Positions 27,205-57,271 of a stretch of DNA of 64,000 bases are shown piece by piece. Source of the stretch: Cyanidioschyzon merolae (lineage: Eukaryota); assembly GCA_000091205.1 (NCBI GenBank), contig AP006493.2; one strand, given 5' to 3'. The notes under the pieces are model-generated. The model was not told where the DNA came from and ran no database searches. It saw only the letters and a list, made by a program, of their open reading frames with translations. Made by a program: the position numbers and the translations under genes. Each line of letters opens with the position of its first letter. Position 1 is the stretch's first letter.

Positions 27205-27452
27205 GAGGACGACAAACCGGGACCGGGTGGAACGCAAACGTACCGGCGTTGGCGAAGCGCGGCTTCTGGTGCGCTTTCCACCACGCGTCCTGGATACACC
27301 TGTGTCGGCGGACAGAGTCGAGTGCACTGGATAGAAGCTGTGTCGGTATGTTTGGATTGTTGGTGATTGTGGTGAACGGCGGGCTTTGCGGGTAGTTCTA
27401 CGAGTTGTTGCTTTTTTATCGACGGTTTTCAATACGCCGCTATCTCCGTAGT

Positions 27453-28629
27453 CCCTTGTTCTGATGCCAGCAGTGGACAGGTACGAACGATGGCAGCGAT
27501 ACCCAAGTGCCGATTGCTCTGCTTCCGGTGCTTATCGACGACGCATTCAATGGACCGGCAAAAGATGCGACCCGTGCTGCACTTGCCGTTCCCCATGTCC
27601 TATGCATCAAGCCTTGACGTACCGTTCGCAGTGCCGGCACTTGACTGCTTGCAGGGATTTTCATGCGTCTAGTACATGTCTCATTCTCCGCCGAGGCCTA
27701 CCCTGCGGTGCTCCAAGCCTGGCTACAGAGCGCTCCACTCGATACCCGCGTTCGATTTTCGCACCCAGTGCAGTGTCCTAGGAGCACGCGCTTCTTCCAG
27801 GCGATGCTCTCAGCGAGTACGCGATCCGCTGCATACGCAAGCGCATACTCTGGTAATCGATCGGGGGTTTGCGGACTCCGATGCCGTCCCTGATGACGAA
27901 ACGATCACAGCAACGAAAACAATGCAGCAAGTTGAGAAGTATCGATGCATCGAGGCTCCCGCAGTGCAACGCGGTGACGTACGCTCCACTCGAGGCGATT
28001 GCTCCAACGACGCTCGTTCGAGTCCGGGTCCCTCGTCGATGCAAACCGCAGAGACTGGAGTCTCCCGGTGCGTATACCGATCGATATATCTCGCTGTTGC
28101 GGAATGCCGTCTCGTTAACCGTCACGAAGCACAGAGGATTCGTCTTTCAAACGGGACTTATGATTGTTCGTGACAAGTCCGGACCACTTTGGGGCAGGCG
28201 CTTGCGGCCAGGTTACCAAACGACGTCGTCGATACTGGTCTTCATGGTCAGTCCAGCGGCGCGACTGGTATTGAAACAGATACATCCATGAACGATAATG
28301 TGTGATGCTCATTTGCAACACGTCAGGAACTGAGAAGCATTGGAGGCTGCAACGTAAGCACTGGGCAGTGGTATCGGGTATTCCAGGATCACGCTTGGTG
28401 GCGGGCGTTGTAACTCATCGTGATTCCAGTGTCGTACCGAATACTTGCGACAAAGCATCGCAGGTCCCGGTCCTGAACCAAGACCCAGAATCCTGAAACG
28501 AGGTATGCATCCGGCATTGCATATGATTTCTCCTCGAGTATCGAGACTGAGCATCCGAGAAAACGGCTGGTAAGATTTGAAGCCAGAATCACAGCGAGCA
28601 TTCCAGAGCTTCACTCTAATCTGAGACGC
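27453..28629 (+). repeat. Dispersed repeat family, copy A (~1.18 kb, 5'-truncated by ~125 bp relative to copies B and C).
   Basis: Near-identical to 31327-32638 and 55970-57271, with a handful of SNPs. Same orientation. No TIRs, LTR-like ends or target-site duplications are evident, and there is no convincing ORF. It abuts the 5' end of the DUF1640 gene. Confidence 0.85.
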
Positions 28630-28991
28630 TTATAGAACGCATTCGTATGCGTTCTAGATGCCCTAACTCCGGTACCAATCTCTGGAGCAGCTCCCGCACT
28701 CGGCAGCATTCCGAACGACACCATGATATCATGAAGCGAACTGGTGCTCGCCCGTTCGCTGCACTGCAGATCGTAAAGAGGCCCTCTTCCCTTCACCATC
28801 ACTGCGCGAGCAAGCAGGCACGTTCGGGCGAGCTCACCATCCACAGATCAACCGAACCGTTGTGGAGTGTGCTCATACGCGGAGCGACTGCATCCGACGC
28901 TTCCCAGGCTTGCGCGCTCGTCTCGGTATCGATGCCTCCGGGGATACCGCCAGCATCTGCTCCCGTCACTCACACAGATGATAACCTGTTT

Positions 28992-31326: not shown

Positions 31327-32638
31327 AAAACGGGTGCACTTGGGTAACTCGGGTGTACAGACTCCAGTTTGGGCTCTCTTTGCTCTGTCATAGACAGAAG
31401 CTTATGCAGGACGTTGCTTCTCCGGTATCCTCGTCTTCAAATACGACGGTATCTGGGGTGCCTTCAGGTCCCTTGTCAGCAGTGGACAGGTACGAACGAT
31501 GGCAGCGATACCCAAGTGCCGATTGCTCTGCTTCCGGTGCTTATCGACGACGCATTCAATGGACCGGCAAAAGATGCGACCCGTGCTGCACTTGCCGTTC
31601 CCCATGTCCTATGCATCAAGCCTTGACGTACCGTTCGCAGTGCCGGCACTTGACTGCTTGCAGGGATTTTCATGCGTCTAGTACATGTCTCATTCTCCGC
31701 CGAGGCCTACCCTGCGGTGCTCCAAGCCTGGCTACAGAGCGCTCCACTCGATACCCGCGTTCGATTTTCGCACCCAGTGCAGTGTCCTAGGAGCACGCGC
31801 TTCTTCCAGGCGATTCTCTCAGCGAGTACGCGATCCGCTGCATACGCAAGCGCATACTCTGGTAATCGATCGGGGGTTTGCGGACTCCGATGCCGTCCCT
31901 GATGACGAAACGATCACAGCAACGAAAACAATGCAGCAAGTTGAGAAGTATCGATGCATCGAGGCTCCCGCAGTGCAACGCGGTGACGTACGCTCCACTC
32001 GAGGCGATTGCTCCAACGACGCTCGTTCGAGTCCGGGTCCCTCGTCGATGCAAACCGCAGAGACTGGAGTCTCCCGGTGCGTATACCGATCGATATATCT
32101 CGCTGTTGCGGAATGCCGTCTCGTTAACCGCCACGAAGCACAGAGGATTCGTCTTTCAAACGGGACTTATGATTGTTCGTGACAAGTCCGGACCACTTTG
32201 GGGCAGGCGCTTGCGGCCAGGTTACCAAACGACGTCGTCGATACAGGTCTTCATGGTCAGTCCAGCGGCGCGACTGGTATTGAAACAGATACATCCATGA
32301 ACGATAATGTGTGATGCTCATTTGCAACACGTCAGGAACTGAGAAGCATTGGAGGCTGCAACGTAAGCACCGGGCAGTGGTATCGGGTATTCCAGGATCA
32401 CGCTTGGTGGCGGGCGTTGTAACTCATCCTGATTCCAGTGTCGTACCGAATACTTGCGACAAAGCATCGCAGGTCCCGGTCCTGAACCAAGACCCAGAAT
32501 CCTGAAACGAGGTATGCATCCGGCATTGCGTATGATTTCTCCTCGAGTATCGAGACTGAGCATCCGAGAAAACGGCTGGTAAGATTTGAAGCCAGAATCA
32601 CAGCGAGCATTCCAGAGCTTCACTCTAATCTGAGACGC
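31327..32638 (+). repeat. Dispersed repeat family, copy B (full length, ~1.31 kb).
   Basis: Near-identical to copies A and C. It lies between the LpxB-like gene start (~350 bp away) and the 3' end of the DHQD-SDH gene. Confidence 0.85.
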
Positions 32639-33126: not shown

Positions 33127-34755
33127 TCAGCGTCGGGCCAGCTGCCCAAGTTCCTGGAGTACAATGTTGCGCATCTCCTGTGCCGGGGCCCTCAAGCCCG
33201 TCCAGATGGTAAACTGGGCTGCGGCCTGTCGGACGAACATCTCGACCCCGTCCACTGTGAGACAACCTCGTCGCTTTGCCAGACTCAGAAGCCGCGTTTC
33301 TATTGGATTATAGACGGCGTCGAACACGAGGCAGTGCGGCTCCAGAATCTCCTCTGGAACCGGAACGACATTCACATCTGGATGCATGCCAATGGAGGTG
33401 GAATTCATCAGAATATCGATTCGCTCTCGGGTAGCAGGGTTCCTCTGCTGTTGACAAAAGTCCTCTAGTGAGAGCGCAACTAGCTCTGTCTTCCCGAAAG
33501 GACTCAAATCATTTGCGAGCGATCTTGCTCTTTCCAGGGTACGATTCACGATAGTGAGTTTGCCGCAGCCGCAGTGTACGACCCCGAAGGCGATCGCCCG
33601 TGCCGCACCACCGGCTCCCAGGAGGACGACATGGCGTCGCTGGAGTGCCGTCAAGCGAGCCTGCCCCTGTTCGATTCCGGGCATCAAGGTCTCGGATACT
33701 GCATCTACCGCTGCCTGCCAATCGGTGTTATAGCCCTTGCGTCGGCCCGTGAGCGGATCCACCACGATCGTATTCACTGCCCCGATCTGCTTCGCCACAT
33801 CATCCAATTCGTCCAGGCACTCCATGATGCGCTGCTTATGGGGAATGGTCACACTGGCCCCGCGCAAGCCAAACTGCGTCATGGTATCGAGAAACTTTTG
33901 CAACTTAGAGCCGTCCTGAACGAGAAAGGGAAGGTAGACGTGGTTCAGACGGCAGAGTCCAAAGGCGTGGTTATGGATCCGCGGGCTCATTGAATGCCTG
34001 ACGGGTGCCCCGATAACCCCATAGACTGTGGTATCAGGGTTCAGGCTATGGAAACGATAATGATCGATGAGTTCTTCGATCCGGAATTGACCCGGTGCAG
34101 ACGCCCGTGCCTCGCTCAGCGTTGTGAACGTCAGCATTGCAGGTCCAAACTTGGCGGCAAGAACTCGGCTGATCTGCCCATACTCTCCCATTCCTATAGC
34201 AATCGTAGGTTTGCTGCCAGCAGTGCGCTTCAGTAAGGCAAATAGTCGCGCGTTGTCGCACAAGTCGTGGCACATCATGGCGATCTTGCAAATATCAGCT
34301 CCGGTTGCCACGATTGCCGTGTAGATTTCAGCGAGCTCCGCTTCAGTTAATGGTCGCGTGAAGCTATGATAGGAGACGATGAGTCGTGGACGAGTGGATG
34401 CATCTTGGAGCTGGACGCTCTCCGGCATCCGAAACAGGTCCATGTTCGCGAGTTCGACGTCCACGTACTCAACGCCGTGTTGAACAGCGCGCTGCAACAG
34501 CCTCACTCGCTCGTGATCGTTCATATCGGATAAACCTCCCTCACAAACAGGACGATATGTGAAAACCATAGGCAGAGGCCGTTGATCTACTACCCGCTCC
34601 CAGGACTCCCCCTCGGCGAGGTAGTCGGCACGGAACTCGACGAGGTCAGCGCCGGCCCTTCGTGCCTCGTACATGTCGGCTATCGCTTCTTCTGCAGAGT
34701 TCGCTGTTATAGATGTACATATTAGACAGCGAATTCCTGCACCTGAAACAGGCAT
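33127..34755 (-). CDS. Bifunctional 3-dehydroquinate dehydratase (type I) / shikimate 5-dehydrogenase (plant-type DHQD-SDH), 542 aa.
   Basis: ATG at 34755-34753. N-terminal DHQase-I domain; C-terminal SDH domain with GVIGAPVRHSMSPRIHNHAF and the NADP-binding LLGAGGAARAIAFG. No obvious transit peptide before the DHQase domain. Confidence 0.85.
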   Translation of the reverse strand: MPVSGAGIRCLICTSITANSAEEAIADMYEARRAGADLVEFRADYLAEGESWERVVDQRPLPMVFTYRPVCEGGLSDMNDHERVRLLQRAVQHGVEYVDVELANMDLFRMPESVQLQDASTRPRLIVSYHSFTRPLTEAELAEIYTAIVATGADICKIAMMCHDLCDNARLFALLKRTAGSKPTIAIGMGEYGQISRVLAAKFGPAMLTFTTLSEARASAPGQFRIEELIDHYRFHSLNPDTTVYGVIGAPVRHSMSPRIHNHAFGLCRLNHVYLPFLVQDGSKLQKFLDTMTQFGLRGASVTIPHKQRIMECLDELDDVAKQIGAVNTIVVDPLTGRRKGYNTDWQAAVDAVSETLMPGIEQGQARLTALQRRHVVLLGAGGAARAIAFGVVHCGCGKLTIVNRTLERARSLANDLSPFGKTELVALSLEDFCQQQRNPATRERIDILMNSTSIGMHPDVNVVPVPEEILEPHCLVFDAVYNPIETRLLSLAKRRGCLTVDGVEMFVRQAAAQFTIWTGLRAPAQEMRNIVLQELGQLARR

Positions 34756-34864
34756 TAAGCGTCGTTATACCGGTGAACACACCAAGGTGTTCTGGAACTC
34801 GCAGATGTCGCGAGAGAGGCACACCTGGCGTGTGCTCAGCGTAGGCGCTGCTGGCCCGCCTCGT

Positions 34865-36699
34865 ATCCCAATGTGGGATCAGCAGCGGTACGAATGCTGA
34901 ATGCTGCGGGTGTTGTTCGACGGACAGTTTCTGGCTATCGAAAGCGTTGACGCTTTTAAGGGCTACTGTTCCGCTGTCCCGCCTCGTATCCCAATGTGGG
35001 ATCAGCAGCGGTACGAATGCTGAATGCTGCGGGTGTTGTTCGACGGACAGTTTCTGGCTATCGAAAGCGTTGACGCTTTCAAGGGCTACTGTTCCGCTGT
35101 CCCGCCTCGTATCCCAATGTGGGATCAGCAGCGGTACGAATGCTGAATGCTGCGGGTGTTGTTCGACGGACAGTTTCTGGCTATCGAAAGCGTTGACGCT
35201 TTCAAGGGCTACTGTTCCGCTGTCCCGCCTCGTATCCCAATGTGGGATCAGCAGCGGTACGAATGCTGAATGCTGCGGGTGTTGTTCGACGGACAGTTTC
35301 TGGCTATCGAAAGCGTTGACGCTTTTAAGGGCTACTGTTCCGCTGTCCCGCCTCGTATCCCAATGTGGGATCAGCAGCGGTACGAATGCCGAATGCTGCG
35401 GGTGTTGTTCGACGGACAGTTTCTGGCTATCGAAAGCGTTGACGCTTTCAAGGGCTACTGTTCCGCTGTCCCGCCTCGTATCCCAATGTGGGATCAGCAG
35501 CGGTACGAATGCCGAATGCTGCGGGTGTTGTTCGACGGACAGTTTCTGGCTATCGAAAGCGTTGACGCTTTCAAGGGCTACTGTTCCGCTGTCCCGCCTC
35601 GTATCCCAATGTGGGATCAGCAGCGGTACGAATGCCGAATGCTGCGGGTGTTGTTCGACGGACAGTTTCTGGCTATCGAAAGCGTTGACGCTTTCAAGGG
35701 CTACTGTTCCGCTGTCCCGCCTCGTATCCCAATGTGGGATCAGCAGCGGTACGAATGCCGAATGCTGCGGGTGTTGTTCGACGGACAGTTTCTGGCTATC
35801 GAAAGCGTTGACGCTTTCAAGGGCTACTGTTCCGCTGTCCCGCCTCGTATCCCAATGTGGGATCAGCAGCGGTACGAATGCCGAATGCTGCGGGTGTTGT
35901 TCGACGGACAGTTTCTGGCTATCGAAAGCGTTGACGCTTTCAAGGGCTACTGTTCCGCTGTCCCGCCTCGTATCCCAATGTGGGATCAGCAGCGGTACGA
36001 ATGCTGAATGCTGCGGGTGTTGTTCGACGGACAGTTTCTGGCTATCGAAAGCGTTGACGCTTTCAAGGGCTACTGTTCCGCTGTCCCGCCTCGTATCCCA
36101 ATGTGGGATCAGCAGCGGTACGAATGCTGAATGCTGCGGGTGTTGTTCGACGGACAGTTTCTGGCTATCGAAAGCGTTGACGCTTTCAAGGGCTACTGTT
36201 CCGCTGTCCCGCCTCGTATCCCAATGTGGGATCAGCAGCGGTACGAATGCCGAATGCTGCGGGTGTTGTTCGACGGACAGTTTCTGGCTATCGAAAGCGT
36301 TGACGCTTTCAAGGGCTACTGTTCCGCTGTCCCGCCTCGTATCCCAATGTGGGATCAGCAGCGGTACGAATGCTGAATGCTGCGGGTGTTGTTCGACGGA
36401 CAGTTTCTGGCTATCGAAAGCGTTGACGCTTTCAAGGGCTACTGTTCCGCTGTCCCGCCTCGTATCCCAATGTGGGATCAGCAGCGGTACGAATGCCGAA
36501 TGCTGCGGGTGTTGTTCGACGGACAGTTTCTGGCTATCGAAAGCGTTGACGCTTTCAAGGGCTACTGTTCCGCTGTCCCGCCTCGTATCCCAATGTGGGA
36601 TCAGCAGCGGTACGAATGCTGAATGCTGCGGGTGTTGTTCGACGGACAGTTTCTGGCTATCGAAAGCGTTGACGCTTTCAAGGGCTACTGTTCCGCTGT
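34865..36699. repeat. Minisatellite: 123-bp unit in ~15 tandem copies, with two alternating SNP variants (gctgaatg/gccgaatg and ttttaag/tttcaag).
   Basis: Period 123 read directly (cccgcc starts at 34978, 35101, 35224, ...). Because 123 = 41 codons, all frames stay open, which produces the artefactual long ORFs 34947..36833, 35270..36007 and others. The array begins ~110 bp upstream of the DHQD-SDH ATG. Confidence 0.9.
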
Positions 36700-37613
36700 C
36701 CCGATCATATCAGGTGAGGACTATGATCGATACTGCGGGTTTGGAGCGCGTTTCCAGGGCCAAACAAGGGGCGTTCCGCACAAGCGGGACGAGTTGGACT
36801 TTTCTGGACGGTTGTCAAGGGCGTCGGCGTTGAGCGGTCGTACGAGTTTCTGCTTCGAGCTTGCAGAGGGAAAGCAGAATCGACATGCATATGTGACTGC
36901 GATGAGCAGATGCTTTTAGTGTTCAAAGCCGTTTGGCGAGTTGATGACGAGTTCAAGATCGTCGGTTGCAGCGTGCGCTGCTTCGTAGAGAGGAACAAGG
37001 ACACGAAAACCTCGAACTCGTTGTGGCGTGTCTGAAACCAATCGTGAAAGAAATCGCCAAGCATCGCTTCCAATGAGTAAATAATATATCGATACGAGAG
37101 GGTTCTGGTTAGCCTACGGATCGCTGTATGCTGTCTGCATGCGTGGGGCGCCTCTACAGCACCTATGAGAACGCGGCGATGCTCAGAAGCGAGTCCATGA
37201 CCTTGACATGACGCTGTGTACAGAGGACCTGAGGCTGTTCGTGAACAAGCTGCTGACTCTGGAATGCCCGTATCTCTTCAGTCTGGCGATAGATCGTTGA
37301 TCTGAACGTCCGAGTCCAAATCCTGTGTTCCAGGCACCGCAACTGGTTCAGTACCCGCAGTGCCCGCATCCCCGAGAGACATCATCGTATGTAGGACGTG
37401 GCGGGTGTCCCTGAACGCTTCTCGTTAACTAGACAACATGAGCGTTTGCGTTAGCCCCCCTACAAGAACATTTTAGCGAGTCTGGGTGGCGCCCAGAGCG
37501 CCCAGCTCGAATAATCTGCCTTTTGCGACAGCGTGGCAGCGGTGGATCCAACGCCCACTGGGTACCGGCTTCTGAAATCGCAAAACGTTTCCTCTGCGAG
37601 CGCGTTGCAATGG

Positions 37614-39175
37614 CTAGTCTTGTCCCCGGGGACATACATTCGCTTTCTCGTCGACGCTAGCGCGAGCGGCGCTTTCGCCGAGCGGCCACCCGGTACGCTG
37701 CGCAACCAGGTTCCAGACTCGTGTTCGAATGCGAGCGCTACATCCATCGGGACGCTCAACAAAACGGTAGACCAGACGCTTGATTTTGAACGACTGCTGA
37801 TAACGCCATTGTCGCGCCCATTCGCTGAATACCTCTCGAACTGATGACGCATCAGGTGGATCTCGAAATACTCCCTGTTGACCGACAGTTGGCCGCTGTG
37901 GCAAAGACCCCGCTGCTGGTATTCGTAAAGCGTCGCGATCATCAGCCAGACCGTCCGTTGCCGTATGACGACCCGGGTATGGATGCTGGACTCCATCCAC
38001 AGTGATATATTCGGCTTCTTGGATATGAAGTAGGCGCATGAGGCCCGCAAAGAATCGATCAACGGGGGTATGCGCTCGACCTGTTCGCAAGATGGCGTGC
38101 CGCAGCTCAGCAGCTGCGTTAATGAGCGTATCACCGAGCGTCCCGCAGCGGCGTGGCTCAAAGTCGGCGGCGACCCAGACAGCGAACAAGAGCTCGATTG
38201 TCGTTCCCAGATACGAGAGGAGATATTCGTCATCTGTCTGGGGATTCTGCTCAGAACTCCGTTTCAAACGCCGCCAGAAGTGTGCAAACAACTGCCACAG
38301 GCGACTAGCGAGGTGAGAAGGAAGCGGACCTTCGCGCGCCGCCACGGCTGCTGCCGTCACCGCTCCAGGCGCGATACCAACGAGCATTGCCAACGCCATG
38401 CGGATACAGGGACTCTTCAGCGGCTGGCGTCGAATACATCGCACGAGCACACCAATCACGATATCGACAAGTGTGCAACGGTCTGCATCGAGGCTGGTCT
38501 CGCGGTACCATGTAACGGGCTGCTCAAGGACGTGGCTCGCAAGCGCTCGAGACCAGCCCTCATCCTCAGTGAGCAGAAGAAGCGTTGCGAGTCGCAACTC
38601 CGTGACGTCTACCGAACTCTCTACGTAGAGCAAGCGCAGCAGCGTTAGCAGAAAGATCTCGGGATCCGTTCGGACGGCCAAGTAGCGCCGCCAATGCTCC
38701 GCGGAATCATACGTTAAAAAATAGAACAAGTACGAGCCTTCTGGATAATGGAGCCACCAAACGCATACATCATGCAGGTTGGATAGCGTCAGCGGCTGCA
38801 CTGAATGCAGCCCAGTCTGCACCGCATCGTTGCCAAAGTCCGCAGCAGCGCCAGCAGCAGCTGTTGTTGTTATTGTTGTTCGTTGATGCTCGCTGTTCGC
38901 ATCAACAACGGCTGGGAGCGTTTCGCAGGAGGTACGCGCAAGCACACCAGCGAGTGCCTGGCGAAATGGTTGACCGGCTCTCTGATTTGGAAACAGCGGC
39001 TGCGCTAGCTCGTCTGGATCGTCAGTCACGAGCGATAACAGGGTTAGCAAGAGCCCCATGCATACCACAGTTTTCCGAGCGATTGGATCCTCCGGTAGTG
39101 CACTCGATCGATGCATATGCAGCGTTCCAGCTGGTGCAATGGCTTCGGCTGCTCGAGAATGCATCCTCGAGGGGC

Positions 39176-39207
<32 letters not shown>

Positions 39208-40562
39208 ATCGAAACTACTGGTTCCTGTGAGGGTTCTGCGAGCTGGTCGGCCTCAGCCGCGTCTGCGAGTACCCGTTCAGCGTTGGCATGCTCGCTGACG
39301 AATGGCCAAAACTGGAACCAAGACCAGTTCGATCTCTTCGCTACGGCGGCATGCAGCGCAGCTGGACGTGCGCTTTGCGTTGCCAACGCTTCCTCGGTGG
39401 ACCTTTCTGCGAAATGTTTTCCGTCTAGTTCGAGAAAGTTGAGGCCCTGCCCTCTCGTTGCCATTTGTAGGAGCACGCTCTCCAAGGTCGTTGCGTCGTG
39501 AATTGTTCCGCTACCCAAGCCTGCCATCTTCCGAATTCTCGATAGCGTGTCGCGAACTAGGCACCCCAGCAAGAGCTCGATGCATCGATGGATTCTTGCG
39601 TCTAGGCGTCGAATGAGCGCATAGGTTTTCGTTGTATCCATCCAGTCAAGCAAATGGAGCAACAGGCAGCTGCTCCAGAAAAAAGTCTCCTGATCGCGGT
39701 CAGCAGACAGCATGAGGTACTCGACGCTCAGGATCAGCATGATATACTGGCAATGCTCAAGTGCTGTCTGGTCGGGGAGAAGAGATTCCCCGCGCTGAGC
39801 CCAGCTTCGCCTCACCGCTGGCCGCAAAAAGTTGCACAAGAACCAGAAGGCCCCATGCACAGCGGCGTGCCAATCACCGGTATTGGCGATACGTGGTTGC
39901 TGATCACCAGGATCCTGCAAAGCATAGACTGCTTTCAGCTGATCCAGGGCACCCAGCGTCGCCAGTAGAACAACAGGTGCTAGTGATTCAAACGCATGCA
40001 GTGATGTCACTAGCCGTTGCATGACAAGCCCGAGCAGAGATTCCTGCTGGTCGTCCAGTGCTGCTCTAGCTGCAGATGGTGTTCCTGGATCACGCGGGAG
40101 TGCATTCGCAGCTCTGGTGTGTACAGTACCGGGGTTCACGACTTCACGCTCGAGGAAGATCAGCGCTCGAAGCCAGAGGCGATCCCCAATGGGCGGCACC
40201 GAAATCCCCTGTTGATTCGTTGGGGTGACACCAGCACCGCCAGCTGCGCTTGTTGGAACTGTGCTCTGCGCTCGGCTGTCGGATGACCAGTGCGCAGTGG
40301 CGTGCGCGACTTGTCTGTGCCAGTAGTGGGCTCCCAGGAGCCGTAGACTTTGCGCAACGCTCTCTGGGTGCACGCTGCCGCTCGCTGCACCAGTGCCCGA
40401 CACGTTTGCGTCCGCTGCTGAAGCCGCAATAGCGCTCGCAGCGTCTTGGTCTTTTGAGCGCCATGACGGGCTCAGGAGGAGGTTTGGGGGCACTTGCTTC
40501 GACTCCGGAAACTCGTTACCGTCTGCGAGTGCCTCCGCTTGGGTGTTTAACGCGTTTCCCAT
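37614..40562 (-). CDS. Large hypothetical protein (982 aa), alpha-helical (possible ARM/HEAT-like), with a (Gln)11 tract and a poly-Ala tract.
   Basis: ATG at 40562-40560 (MGNALNT...). Uninterrupted ORF. The (CTG)9 tract at ~39178-39205 encodes the poly-Q on this strand. No recognisable domain. Confidence 0.5.
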
Positions 40563-55454: not shown

Positions 55455-55969
55455 CCGTAGACTCGTACAACAAGTACACGTCACTCCAGGCGCCTTAGTT
55501 GCGCTCGGGCGTGTGAAGCCGATGTAAACGTGTGCAGGATCCAAGCAATCGACAGTGTCGTCCGCTTCCAAAACGCGTTAGCAGTGCAGTTGCAGCGTCT
55601 ACGCAGTGCCGTTGCGTTCTTTTCGGTTTTCGACACGACGTTTCGATGCGCCATGGATTCCATCCTGCTGGACGGATACTGGTATTCGTGGAAGCGTTCA
55701 TCACCATGTTGCACTCTACTTCCAGGTTCCATGGACCGTAGTTCGTTTCGGAGGAACTGTTATCTTGTTGCTAGTTACTGGATAGTTTATGTTCGTTTTC
55801 CGCACCGTTGCAGCTAGTAAATGGTTTGTTTCTGGGCTTTTTTTTCTCGCGCAGCGAATCGATGCTATCGTATGCTTTTTAGGGACCAGTAGCGTCGCTG
55901 ATGCTGGTGGCAACCCATATCCATCGATCGATAAGGTTGTACACGTCTCAGACAAGAATGGAACGGGTG

Positions 55970-57271
55970 CACTTGGGTAACTCGGGTGTACAGACTCCAG
56001 TTTGGGCTCTCTTTGCTCTGTCATAGACAGAAGCTTATGCAGGACGTTGCTTCTCCGGTATCCTCGTCTTCAAATACGACGGTATCTGGGGTGCCTTCAG
56101 GTCCCTTGTCAGCAGTGGACAGGTACGAACGATGGCAGCGATACCCAAGTGCCGATTGCTCTGCTTCCGGTGCTTATCGACGACGCATTCAATGGACCGG
56201 CAAAAGATGCGACCCGTGCTGCACTTGCCGTTCCCCATGTCCTATGCATCAAGCCTTGACGTACCGTTCGCAGTGCCGGCACTTGACTGCTTGCAGGGAT
56301 TTTCATGCGTCTAGTACATGTCTCATTCTCCGCCGAGGCCTACCCTGCGGTGCTCCAAGCCTGGCTACAGAGCGCTCCACTCGATACCCGCGTTCGATTT
56401 TCGCACCCAGTGCAGTGTCCTAGGAGCACGCGCTTCTTCCAGGCGATTCTCTCAGCGAGTACGCGATCCGCTGCATACGCAAGCGCATACTCTGGTAATC
56501 GATCGGGGGTTTGCGGACTCCGATGCCGTCCCTGATGACGAAACGATCACAGCAGCGAAAACAATGCAGCAAGTTGAGAAGTATCGATGCATCGAGGCTC
56601 CCGCAGTGCAACGCGGTGACGTACGCTCCACTCGAAGCGATTGCTCCAACGACGCTCGTTCGAGTCCGGGTCCCTCGTCGATGCAAACCGCAGAGACTGG
56701 AGTCTCCCGGTGCGTATACCGATCGATGTATCTCGCTGTTGCGGAATGCCGTCTCGTTAACCGTCACGAAGCACAGAGGATTCGTCTTTCAAACGGGACC
56801 GATGATTGTTCGTGACAAGTCCGGTACACTTTGGGGCAGGCGCTTGCGGCCAGGTTACCAAACGACGTCGTCGATACAGGTCTTCATGGTCAGTCCAGCG
56901 GCGCGACTGGTATTGAAACAGATACATCCATGAACGATAATGTGTGATGCTCATTTGCAACACGTCAGGAACTGAGAAGCATTGGAGGCTGCAACGTAAG
57001 CACCGGGCAGTGGTATCGGGTATTCCAGGATCACGCTTGGTGGCGGGCGTTGTAACTCATCGTGATTCCAGTGTCGTACCGAATACTTGCGACAAAGCAT
57101 CGCAGGTCCCGGTCCTGAACCAAGACCCAGAATCCTGAAACGAGGTATGCATCCGGCATTGCATATGATTTCTCCTCGAGTGTCGAGACTGAGCATCCGA
57201 GAAAACGGCTGGTAAGATTTGAAGCCAGAATCACAGCGAGCATTCCAGAGCTTCACTCTAATCTGAGACGC
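55970..57271 (+). repeat. Dispersed repeat family, copy C (full length, ~1.30 kb).
   Basis: Near-identical to copies A and B. It starts ~400-500 bp upstream of the Kelch-BTB gene start. Confidence 0.85.

What the first reader, a model, noticed from the sequence alone, without database searches (positions are those of the whole stretch)
34865..36699. A 123-bp x ~15 minisatellite sits 110 bp upstream of the shikimate-pathway gene and generates phantom ORFs in every frame
This is a highly regular array with period 123, built from two alternating variants that differ at two positions, so it may be a 246-bp higher-order repeat. It starts ~110 bp 5' of the DHQD-SDH ATG, in its promoter or 5'-UTR region. 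Because 123 = 41 codons, it yields 600+ aa artefactual ORFs (34947..36833 and others) that automated annotation would miscall as repetitive proteins. Arrays like this can act as enhancer-like multimerised binding sites, as nucleosome-positioning or boundary elements, or as recombination hotspots. The downstream DHQD-SDH also lacks an obvious transit peptide, so the true 5' end of that gene deserves scrutiny.
Basis: seen in the sequence. Interest (0 to 1): 0.55.

Follow-up and report, generated by a model that had tools for sequence, protein, structure and literature searches.

The report
Ordinary intergenic minisatellite in a red alga

Summary
The array is real. It spans window 34850-36703 and is 15 x 123 bp plus 9 bp, with 99% identity between units. 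The window is Cyanidioschyzon merolae 10D, on the 852,849-bp chromosome record that carries CMK locus tags.

The array lies in the 2,858-bp spacer between CMK271C (Dymeclin-like) and the DHQD-SDH gene, 94 bp upstream of the DHQD-SDH ATG.

Several details of the finding are wrong:
- The unit variants do not alternate, and there is no 246-bp higher-order repeat.
- Only 2 of 6 frames are open throughout, and a third is open in part. That is the chance expectation for 123-mers of this window.
- Neither fully open frame contains an ATG.

GenBank annotates no CDS in the array. The unit is absent elsewhere in the window, and every match in public metagenome contigs is at this same locus.

Contigs from closely related strains carry the same flanks. 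Four show one unit, two show two units, and 14 break inside the array, so copy number may vary; assembly collapse cannot be excluded.

More distant relatives lack the unit. One of them has an unrelated 56-bp array in the same slot, and another has only 370 bp of spacer.

The DHQD-SDH N-terminus matches all red-algal homologues, so no 5' exon is hidden in the array.

Verdict: an ordinary, lineage-specific, non-coding minisatellite. A regulatory role is untested. Interest is low.

The parts
34850..36703 (.). Minisatellite array: 15 units of 123 bp plus a 9-bp partial unit (1854 bp), GC 55%
   Evidence: TRF reports period 123, 15.1 copies, 99% matches and no indels. The unit-by-unit table shows 0-2 differences per unit.
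34850..34858 (.). Proximal boundary 9-mer GCTGGCCCG (G at unit position 5, only in the boundary unit)
   Evidence: The first unit of related-strain contigs also carries 5G.
36695..36703 (.). Terminal partial unit GCTGTCCCG. Together with 34850-34858 it forms an 8/9 direct repeat bracketing the amplified segment, which I read as the microhomology footprint of the first duplication
   Evidence: Contigs with one unit show 9 + 114 + 9 = 132 bp between identical flanks.
35063..35080 (.). Perfect 8-2-8 palindrome GAAAGCGT-TG-ACGCTTTC. One per unit, at 34940 + 123n; weakened by the T108 variant in units 1 and 4
   Evidence: the repeat finder pairs I3 and I4. The palindrome is found only inside the array, 15 sites.
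34756..34849 (-). 94-bp unique spacer between the array and the DHQD-SDH ATG. It is probably the 5'UTR and core promoter (inferred, no transcript data)
   Evidence: It is 97-99% identical in related strains.
33127..34755 (-). DHQD-SDH gene, 542 aa, 100% identical to C. merolae 10D BAM80612.1 / XP_005536648.1
36704..37613 (-). 910-bp unique spacer between the stop codon of CMK271C and the array
37614..40562 (-). CMK271C, a 982-aa Dymeclin-like protein (BAM80613.1), the gene upstream of the array on the same strand
34845..36830 (+). Phantom open frame of 662 codons, stop to stop. The unit has no ATG in this frame; the listed 628-aa ORF starts at a TTG
34649..36709 (-). Phantom open frame of 687 codons, stop to stop. 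The unit has no ATG, GTG or TTG in this frame. A stop lies directly at the distal array edge, and the frame runs out of frame into the DHQD-SDH CDS
35270..36007 (+). Longest ATG-initiated phantom ORF (245 aa). It spans the five consecutive C49 units; in T49 units this frame has a TGA
   Evidence: The exact sequence is absent from the 15-billion-protein collection.

Best explanation
This is a locus-specific, non-coding minisatellite in the spacer between CMK271C and DHQD-SDH on the 852,849-bp chromosome of Cyanidioschyzon merolae 10D.

Origin (inferred). A 123-bp piece of ordinary spacer DNA, bracketed by an imperfect 9-bp direct repeat (GCTGGCCCG ... GCTGTCCCG), was duplicated. The likely route was slipped-strand mispairing or unequal exchange at that microhomology. 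Once two 123-bp copies existed, replication slippage or unequal sister-chromatid or homologue exchange expanded and homogenised the array to 15 near-identical units. The self-complementary unit (a perfect 8-2-8 palindrome plus two further hairpins) may favour slippage.

Effect (inferred). The array is most likely selectively neutral. The 94 bp next to the ATG and the first unit are the same as in strains whose contigs show one unit, so the proximal promoter is unchanged. The main physical effect is to move the distal 910 bp of spacer about 1.7 kb further from DHQD-SDH.

Shown: the structure, the boundaries, the absence of coding potential, the locus specificity, the presence of the unit between the same flanks in close relatives, and its absence in more distant relatives.

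Inferred: the duplication mechanism, the neutrality, and true copy-number polymorphism.
For: Structure: 15 x 123 + 9 bp, 99% identity, only three variable positions.

Organism and annotation:
- DHQD-SDH is 100% identical to BAM80612.1.
- The neighbouring genes are BAM80611 and BAM80613 (CMK271C), so no CDS is annotated between them.

No coding signal:
- No ATG in either fully open frame, and a stop at the array edge.
- The number of open frames equals the chance mode.
- Pfam hits are summed sub-threshold noise, with 0 stretches passing on their own.
- One database hit only, a contig-end automated gene call.
- 4 of 8 variable sites are synonymous in the open frames, which is not significant.

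Locus specificity:
- No other copy in the window at up to 3 mismatches or by blastn at E <= 1.
- The JGI metagenome scan found two contigs, both at this locus.
- No match in viral or prokaryotic collections.

Close relatives, with flanks 99.2-99.8% identical:
- Four contigs have 1.07 units and two have 2.07 units between identical flanks.
- 14 contigs end inside the array, coming from either side.
- Unit variants differ between samples.

Not conserved in more distant relatives:
- Cyanidiococcus (81% aa identity) has no homologue of the unit.
- A relative at 53% aa identity has only 370 bp in this slot.
- Galdieria has different neighbours.

No RNA family matches.
Against: - There are no transcript, chromatin or reporter data, so a regulatory effect is not excluded.
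- The unit folds better than shuffles: z -2.9 as DNA for one unit and z -5.0 as RNA for two units. It also carries a perfect palindrome with a TGACG core and a CCAAT motif, which could be binding sites.
- An unrelated 56-bp x 6.8 array occupies the same spacer in Cyanidiococcus yangmingshanensis. This could hint at selection for repeats here, although I estimate the chance probability at about 0.1-0.25.
- Contigs with one or two units may be collapsed short-read assemblies. The 'single' unit of L004 combines variants of which L016's distal unit carries only some. Copy-number polymorphism is therefore not proven.
- The count of 15 in the reference could not be checked independently.
Confidence: 0.8

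Rival explanations
1. The array is a functional, multimerised cis-regulatory or architectural element for DHQD-SDH, or an insulator between the co-directional genes CMK271C and DHQD-SDH. On this reading, 15 phased copies of a palindromic factor site (GAAAGCGT-TG-ACGCTTTC, TGACG core) and a CCAAT motif raise or buffer transcription.
For: - The array starts 94 bp from the ATG.
- There is one perfect 8-2-8 palindrome per unit, and it is kept in the divergent L004 unit.
- A CCAAT motif lies about 115 bp upstream of the ATG in the first unit.
- An independent tandem array occupies the same spacer in Cyanidiococcus.
Against: - The palindrome occurs nowhere else in the 64-kb window, so there is no sign of a shared regulatory motif.
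- The CCAAT motif and its hairpin are destroyed, without compensation, in the L004 and L006 strains.
- Neither the unit nor any array is conserved in L003, L017 or Galdieria. A 370-bp spacer suffices in L017.
- The two arrays share no sequence: alignment score 16 against 14 +/- 2 for shuffles.
- Near-identity of the units shows recent amplification rather than long-term maintenance.
Confidence: 0.1
2. The array encodes a real repetitive protein of 41-residue repeats, in the plus frame 34845-36830 or the minus frame 34649-36709.
For: - Two frames are open for more than 660 codons.
- 123 is 41 codons.
- 4 of 8 variable sites are synonymous in those two frames.
Against: - The unit has no ATG in either frame, and stops lie at the array edges.
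- C. merolae has very few introns (PMC1955436 abstract), so a spliced entry is unlikely.
- There is no GenBank model and no homologue among 5.8 billion clusters apart from a contig-end fragment.
- There is no Pfam domain.
- The open-frame count equals the chance expectation.
- The minus frame runs out of frame into the DHQD-SDH CDS.
Confidence: 0.02
3. The array, or its 15 copies, is an assembly artefact of the reference genome.
For: - Near-identical 123-bp units spanning 1.85 kb exceed a Sanger read, so copy number is hard to finish.
- Six related-strain contigs show only 1-2 units.
Against: - 14 independent short-read contigs from many samples stop inside the array, from both the proximal and the distal side. 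This is what a real multi-copy repeat longer than the k-mer or read length produces.
- Contigs with two or more distinct unit variants exist: L005, L016, L024.
- The internal variant pattern in the window is irregular, not a simple stutter.
- The reference was finished to 100% (PMC1955436).
Confidence: 0.05
4. The array is one site of a genome-wide satellite family, for example centromeric or subtelomeric.
For: None found.
Against: - There is no other copy in the 64-kb window.
- All metagenome contigs with the unit map to this locus.
- Genes flank it closely on both sides.
- Its GC content (55%) equals that of the surroundings.
Confidence: 0.01

Closest known systems
Minisatellites / VNTR loci in gene-flanking DNA, for example the INS VNTR upstream of human insulin (my own knowledge, not tested here)
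   Same: Head-to-tail non-coding units at a single locus in the upstream region of a gene. The units are highly homogenised, internal variant units form irregular blocks, and copy number probably varies between strains.
   Different: The 123-bp unit is at the long end of the minisatellite range. It is not G-rich or strand-asymmetric like classical human minisatellites. Polymorphism here is inferred only from short-read contigs, and no effect on expression is known.
Unstable tandem repeats in yeast promoters (Vinces et al. 2009, Science; my own knowledge)
   Same: A tandem repeat lies within a few hundred bp upstream of an ORF in a compact, intron-poor unicellular genome. Copy-number change could in principle tune expression.
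   Different: The yeast promoter repeats are mostly short (1-10 bp), AT-rich and nucleosome-excluding. This unit is 123 bp with average GC content. No expression data exist for it.
The 56-bp x 6.8 tandem array upstream of DHQD-SDH in Cyanidiococcus yangmingshanensis (L002 9469-9847)
   Same: It occupies the same Dymeclin-to-DHQD-SDH spacer, at a similar distance from the ATG (154 bp against 94 bp), in a sister genus.
   Different: The sequence is unrelated. GC content is 39% against 55%, unit identity is 87% against 99%, and the array is 0.38 kb against 1.85 kb. A second Cyanidiococcus-like contig, L003, has no array.
Genes for tandem-repeat proteins (intragenic minisatellites, for example the yeast FLO and mucin-like genes; my own knowledge)
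   Same: The period is a multiple of three, and long frames are open.
   Different: There is no start codon, no flanking coding context, no homologues and no annotation.

Membership tests
Minisatellite / VNTR | Head-to-tail tandem units of roughly 10-100+ bp forming an array of 0.1-20 kb | tested here: met
   123 bp x 15.07 = 1854 bp, 99% identity, no indels
Minisatellite / VNTR | Single locus, not dispersed through the genome | tested here: met
   No other copy in the window. All public contigs with the unit are at this locus. The full genome could not be scanned.
Minisatellite / VNTR | Copy number varies between individuals or strains | tested here: inconclusive
   Contigs with 1.07, 2.07 and at least 2.6 units, against 15 in the reference. 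Short-read assemblies can collapse arrays, and L004 looks like a possible chimera of two unit types.
Minisatellite / VNTR | Non-coding | tested here: met
   No ATG in the open frames, no annotation, no homologues, and an open-frame count at the chance level
Higher-order repeat (246 bp) | Units are more similar at lag 2 than at lag 1, with regular alternation of variants | tested here: not met
   Mismatch rate is 0.58% at lag 123 and 0.56% at lag 246. The variant order is TTTTCCCCCTTCTCT.
Tandem-repeat protein gene | Complete ORF with a start codon, homologues or domains, and a signature of purifying selection | tested here: not met
Satellite / centromeric repeat | Large arrays at several loci, gene-poor surroundings, CENH3 binding | tested here: not met
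   The array is 1.85 kb, sits between two genes, and is locus-specific in the available data. CENH3 binding is not testable here.
Multimerised enhancer / promoter element | The unit carries factor-binding sites that are conserved in orthologous promoters or recur at co-regulated genes | tested here: not met
   The palindrome is absent elsewhere in the window. The unit is absent from the Cyanidiococcus, L017 and Galdieria promoters. The CCAAT motif is lost in L004 and L006.
Multimerised enhancer / promoter element | Copy number changes transcription of the adjacent gene | not testable with these tools
   Needs reporter or knock-in experiments, or RNA-seq from strains with known copy number
Structured non-coding RNA gene (amplified) | Match to a known RNA family, or covariation supporting a fold | tested here: not met
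   No Rfam hit even at E <= 1. The fold z-scores are favourable, but the 19C>G change in L004 breaks a stem without compensation.

The most novel reading that the evidence does not exclude
The spacer upstream of DHQD-SDH in the Cyanidioschyzon and Cyanidiococcus lineages is a site where tandem arrays are repeatedly generated and retained because they act on transcription. For example, 15 phased copies of a palindromic factor site might amplify or insulate DHQD-SDH expression. On this reading, copy number is an evolvable control on flux into aromatic amino-acid synthesis in hot-spring populations.
Probability: 0.06. Interest if true: 0.5.

Novelty: new member of a known kind. Interest (0 to 1): 0.17.

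Why it matters
It matters little for biology at large. C. merolae is valued for its extremely simple, repeat-poor and fully finished genome, so a 1.85-kb near-perfect minisatellite next to a core metabolic gene is a minor curiosity.

It has three practical uses:
- A possible VNTR marker for typing laboratory and hot-spring strains, and for detecting recombination now that a sexual cycle has been reported in this algal class.
- A known trouble spot where short-read assemblies break or collapse.
- A ready-made natural series (1, 2 and 15 units) for testing promoter-spacing effects in a genetically tractable alga.

It is also a cautionary case for gene callers that accept non-ATG starts on eukaryotic or metagenomic DNA.

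Tried and rejected
- Coding repeat protein: rejected (no start codon, no homologues, no annotation).
- 246-bp higher-order repeat: rejected.
- Known RNA family or tRNA-derived unit: nothing found.
- Bacterial-type promoter and terminator scans: nothing found, and not appropriate for a eukaryote.
- Unit derived from a virus, plasmid-like or prokaryotic sequence: no exact 23-mer match in the viral or prokaryotic genome collections.
- Homology between the C. merolae unit and the orthologous Cyanidiococcus spacer or its 56-bp repeat: none.
- Hidden upstream exon or transit peptide for DHQD-SDH: rejected.
- Literature: nothing on this array, on minisatellites in Cyanidioschyzon, or on CMK270C/CMK271C.
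- The NCBI chromosome record itself could not be fetched through the look-up of encoding contigs, so I could not scan the whole genome for the unit or for other minisatellites.
- Read depth was not available, so copy number in the short-read samples could not be estimated.

Full report
**Observation.** Tandem Repeats Finder reports a single long array in the 64-kb window: 34850-36703, period 123, 15.1 copies, 99% matches, no indels, score 3638. Laid out in register, it is 15 complete units plus a 9-bp partial unit. Only three positions vary:
- Position 49 is T in eight units and C in seven, in the order TTTT CCCCC TT C T C T.
- Position 108 is T in units 1 and 4 only.
- Position 5 is G only in the boundary unit nearest DHQD-SDH.

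The mismatch rate is the same at lag 123 (0.58%) and lag 246 (0.56%). The 'two alternating variants / 246-bp higher-order repeat' description is therefore wrong. The array starts 94 bp, not about 110 bp, from the ATG of the minus-strand DHQD-SDH ORF at 33127-34755.

**Where the window comes from.** The DHQD-SDH protein is 100% identical to BAM80612.1 / XP_005536648.1 of Cyanidioschyzon merolae 10D, on a record of 852,849 bp. The two flanking ORFs are exact matches to BAM80611.1 (660 aa) and BAM80613.1 (CMK271C, 982 aa, Dymeclin domain). These accessions are consecutive, so the reference annotation places no CDS in the 2,858-bp spacer. In gene orientation the layout is: CMK271C stop, 910 bp unique sequence, the 1,854-bp array, 94 bp unique sequence, DHQD-SDH ATG.

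**Is it coding?** Evidence against a coding role:
- Two of the six frames are open across the whole array: plus strand 34845-36830 and minus strand 34649-36709. A third is open only through the C49 units, at most 245 aa. Three frames have a stop in every unit.
- Neither fully open frame has an ATG in the unit. The minus frame has no ATG, GTG or TTG at all, is closed by a stop at the distal edge of the array, and runs out of frame into DHQD-SDH.
- Random 123-mers of this window, treated as periodic, most often have two (32%) or three (25%) open frames. The open frames carry no information.
- The Pfam 'hits' are sums of sub-threshold repeats, with no stretch passing on its own.
- A query joining two units of each of the three open-frame peptides found a single protein among 5.8 billion clusters. 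It is a 149-aa JGI 'hypothetical protein' called at the very end of a metagenome contig that stops inside the array.
- Among the eight variable sites seen within and between strains, four are synonymous in the two open frames. With an expectation of about 25-30% synonymous, this is not significant.

I conclude that the array is non-coding.

**Is it a dispersed family?** No other copy occurs in the window, either at up to 3 mismatches to a 23-mer or by blastn at E <= 1. An exact scan of the JGI metagenome contigs returned two contigs, both at this same locus. The viral and prokaryotic collections returned nothing. I could not scan the rest of the C. merolae genome.

**Related strains.** Twenty short-read contigs from metagenomes and SRA runs carry flanks 99.2-99.8% identical to the window.
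- Four cross the site with 1.07 units (L004, L006, L007, L023).
- Two cross it with 2.07 units (L005, L014).
- Fourteen stop inside the array, coming either from the DHQD-SDH side (L001, L008-L012, L015) or from the CMK271C side (L016, L019/L025, L020-L022, L024, L026).

The 14 broken contigs are the behaviour expected of a real multi-copy repeat, which argues against a reference-only artefact. Unit variants differ among samples (16G, 19G, 55T, 78T, 112C). The internal junction is G-type in L005 but T-type in 10D.

True low-copy alleles are plausible but unproven. The single unit of L004 carries variants 19G and 55T as well as 78T and 112C, whereas the distal unit of L016 carries only 49C, 78T and 112C. 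L004 could therefore be a collapsed chimera of two unit types.

In contigs with one unit, the segment is 132 bp: 9 + 114 + 9, with the 8/9 direct repeat GCTGGCCCG ... GCTGTCCCG at its ends. I read this as the microhomology footprint of the first duplication.

**More distant relatives.** The gene order CAF1/Egalitarian-like, Dymeclin-like, DHQD-SDH is conserved in three relatives: Cyanidiococcus yangmingshanensis (L002), a related metagenome contig (L003), and a relative at 53% aa identity (L017). None has a homologue of the unit.
- The L017 spacer is only 370 bp.
- Galdieria has different neighbours and a 107-bp spacer.
- L002 carries an unrelated tandem array (56 bp x 6.8, 87% identity, GC 39%) ending 154 bp from its DHQD-SDH ATG.

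The two units share no similarity: alignment score 16 against 14 +/- 2 for shuffles. Given the density of repeats in these loci, I estimate the chance of such a coincidence at roughly 0.1-0.25. I record it as unexplained rather than as evidence of function.

**Anatomy of the unit.** Each unit has a perfect 8-2-8 palindrome (GAAAGCGT TG ACGCTTTC, with a TGACG core). It also has a 6-3-6 hairpin that contains CCAAT, and further self-complementarity.
- The unit folds better than shuffles: z -2.9 as DNA for one unit and z -5.0 as RNA for two units.
- No Rfam family matches, even at E <= 1.
- The 19C>G change in L004 and L006 breaks the CCAAT hairpin without compensation.
- The palindrome occurs nowhere else in the window.

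These features fit a slippage-prone sequence at least as well as a factor-binding module.

**The 5' end of DHQD-SDH.** An in-frame stop lies three codons upstream of the ATG, and the DHquinase_I domain starts at residue 13. Six of the seven other red-algal homologues aligned (Cyanidiococcus, two Galdieria, Rhodosorus, Porphyra, Pyropia) and two planctomycete proteins begin at or within a few residues of the same point. The seventh (P0004, the 53%-identity relative) starts even later. Only the green alga Parachlorella has a short extension. The lack of a transit-peptide-like extension is therefore shared by the red algae sampled here and is not a mis-annotation caused by the array.

**Conclusion.** The best-supported reading (confidence about 0.8) is an ordinary, lineage-specific, non-coding minisatellite.
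- Origin: microhomology-mediated duplication of 123 bp of spacer, then expansion and homogenisation by slippage or unequal exchange.
- Effect: probably neutral. It leaves the proximal 94 bp and the first unit as they are in alleles with few units.

Rival readings and my confidence in each: a regulatory or architectural role, about 0.1; an inflated copy number in the reference assembly, about 0.05; a repeat protein, about 0.02; a satellite family, about 0.01. I found no literature on this array. It is a new member of a known kind, of low general interest. Its practical value is as a strain marker, as a known assembly trouble spot, and as a natural copy-number series for promoter-spacing experiments.

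Noticed in passing
L002 9469-9847 (Cyanidiococcus yangmingshanensis VWRR01000010.1): An unrelated tandem array (56 bp x 6.8, 87% identity, GC 39%) lies 154 bp upstream of the orthologous DHQD-SDH ATG. It occupies the same Dymeclin-to-DHQD-SDH spacer as the C. merolae array. This may be coincidence or a repeat-prone site.
   Followed up: partly
window 31329-32638, 55962-57271 and 27431-28636: A dispersed repeat of about 1.2-1.3 kb is present three times in the window at 98-99% identity. One copy lies just downstream of DHQD-SDH. It may belong to the interspersed element with 253 copies described for C. merolae in PMC1955436; I did not test this.
   Followed up: no
L007 1-3743 (JGI 3300057248, Ga0556024_00864), against window position about 36844: One related-strain contig matches the window through DHQD-SDH, one repeat unit and about 140 bp of distal flank. 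It then continues into different genes (a 413-aa ORF and a zf-AN1 protein) instead of CMK271C. This is either a rearrangement near the array or a chimeric assembly.
   Followed up: partly
window 33127-34755 (-): After the red-algal and plant homologues, the best matches to DHQD-SDH are Planctomycetota and Brocadiales proteins at 43-45% identity. None of the red-algal homologues aligned has an N-terminal extension, which suggests either a cytosolic enzyme or a non-canonical targeting signal in red algae.
   Followed up: partly
window 34791 and L001 (SRR6207159): The window has T where L001 and four related-strain metagenome contigs aligned there (L004-L007) have C, in the 94-bp spacer (GCGACATCTGCG against GCGACACCTGCG). 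L001 differs from the window at 4 of 2,276 positions although the protein is identical, so that run is not the reference clone.
   Followed up: no
window 36705-37277 (-); L004 9209-9775: JGI automated annotation calls a 188-aa ORF ending exactly at the distal edge of the array. In 10D the frame has only a late ATG (119 aa) and a low-complexity composition. That 119-aa sequence is absent from the protein collection, and no GenBank CDS lies between BAM80612 and BAM80613. It is probably another spurious call.
   Followed up: partly
window 39177-39207 and other 3-bp repeats (23057, 25045, 26581, 44366): Perfect trinucleotide runs of 8-11 copies lie inside long ORFs, for example the poly-Q tract in CMK271C.
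   Followed up: no
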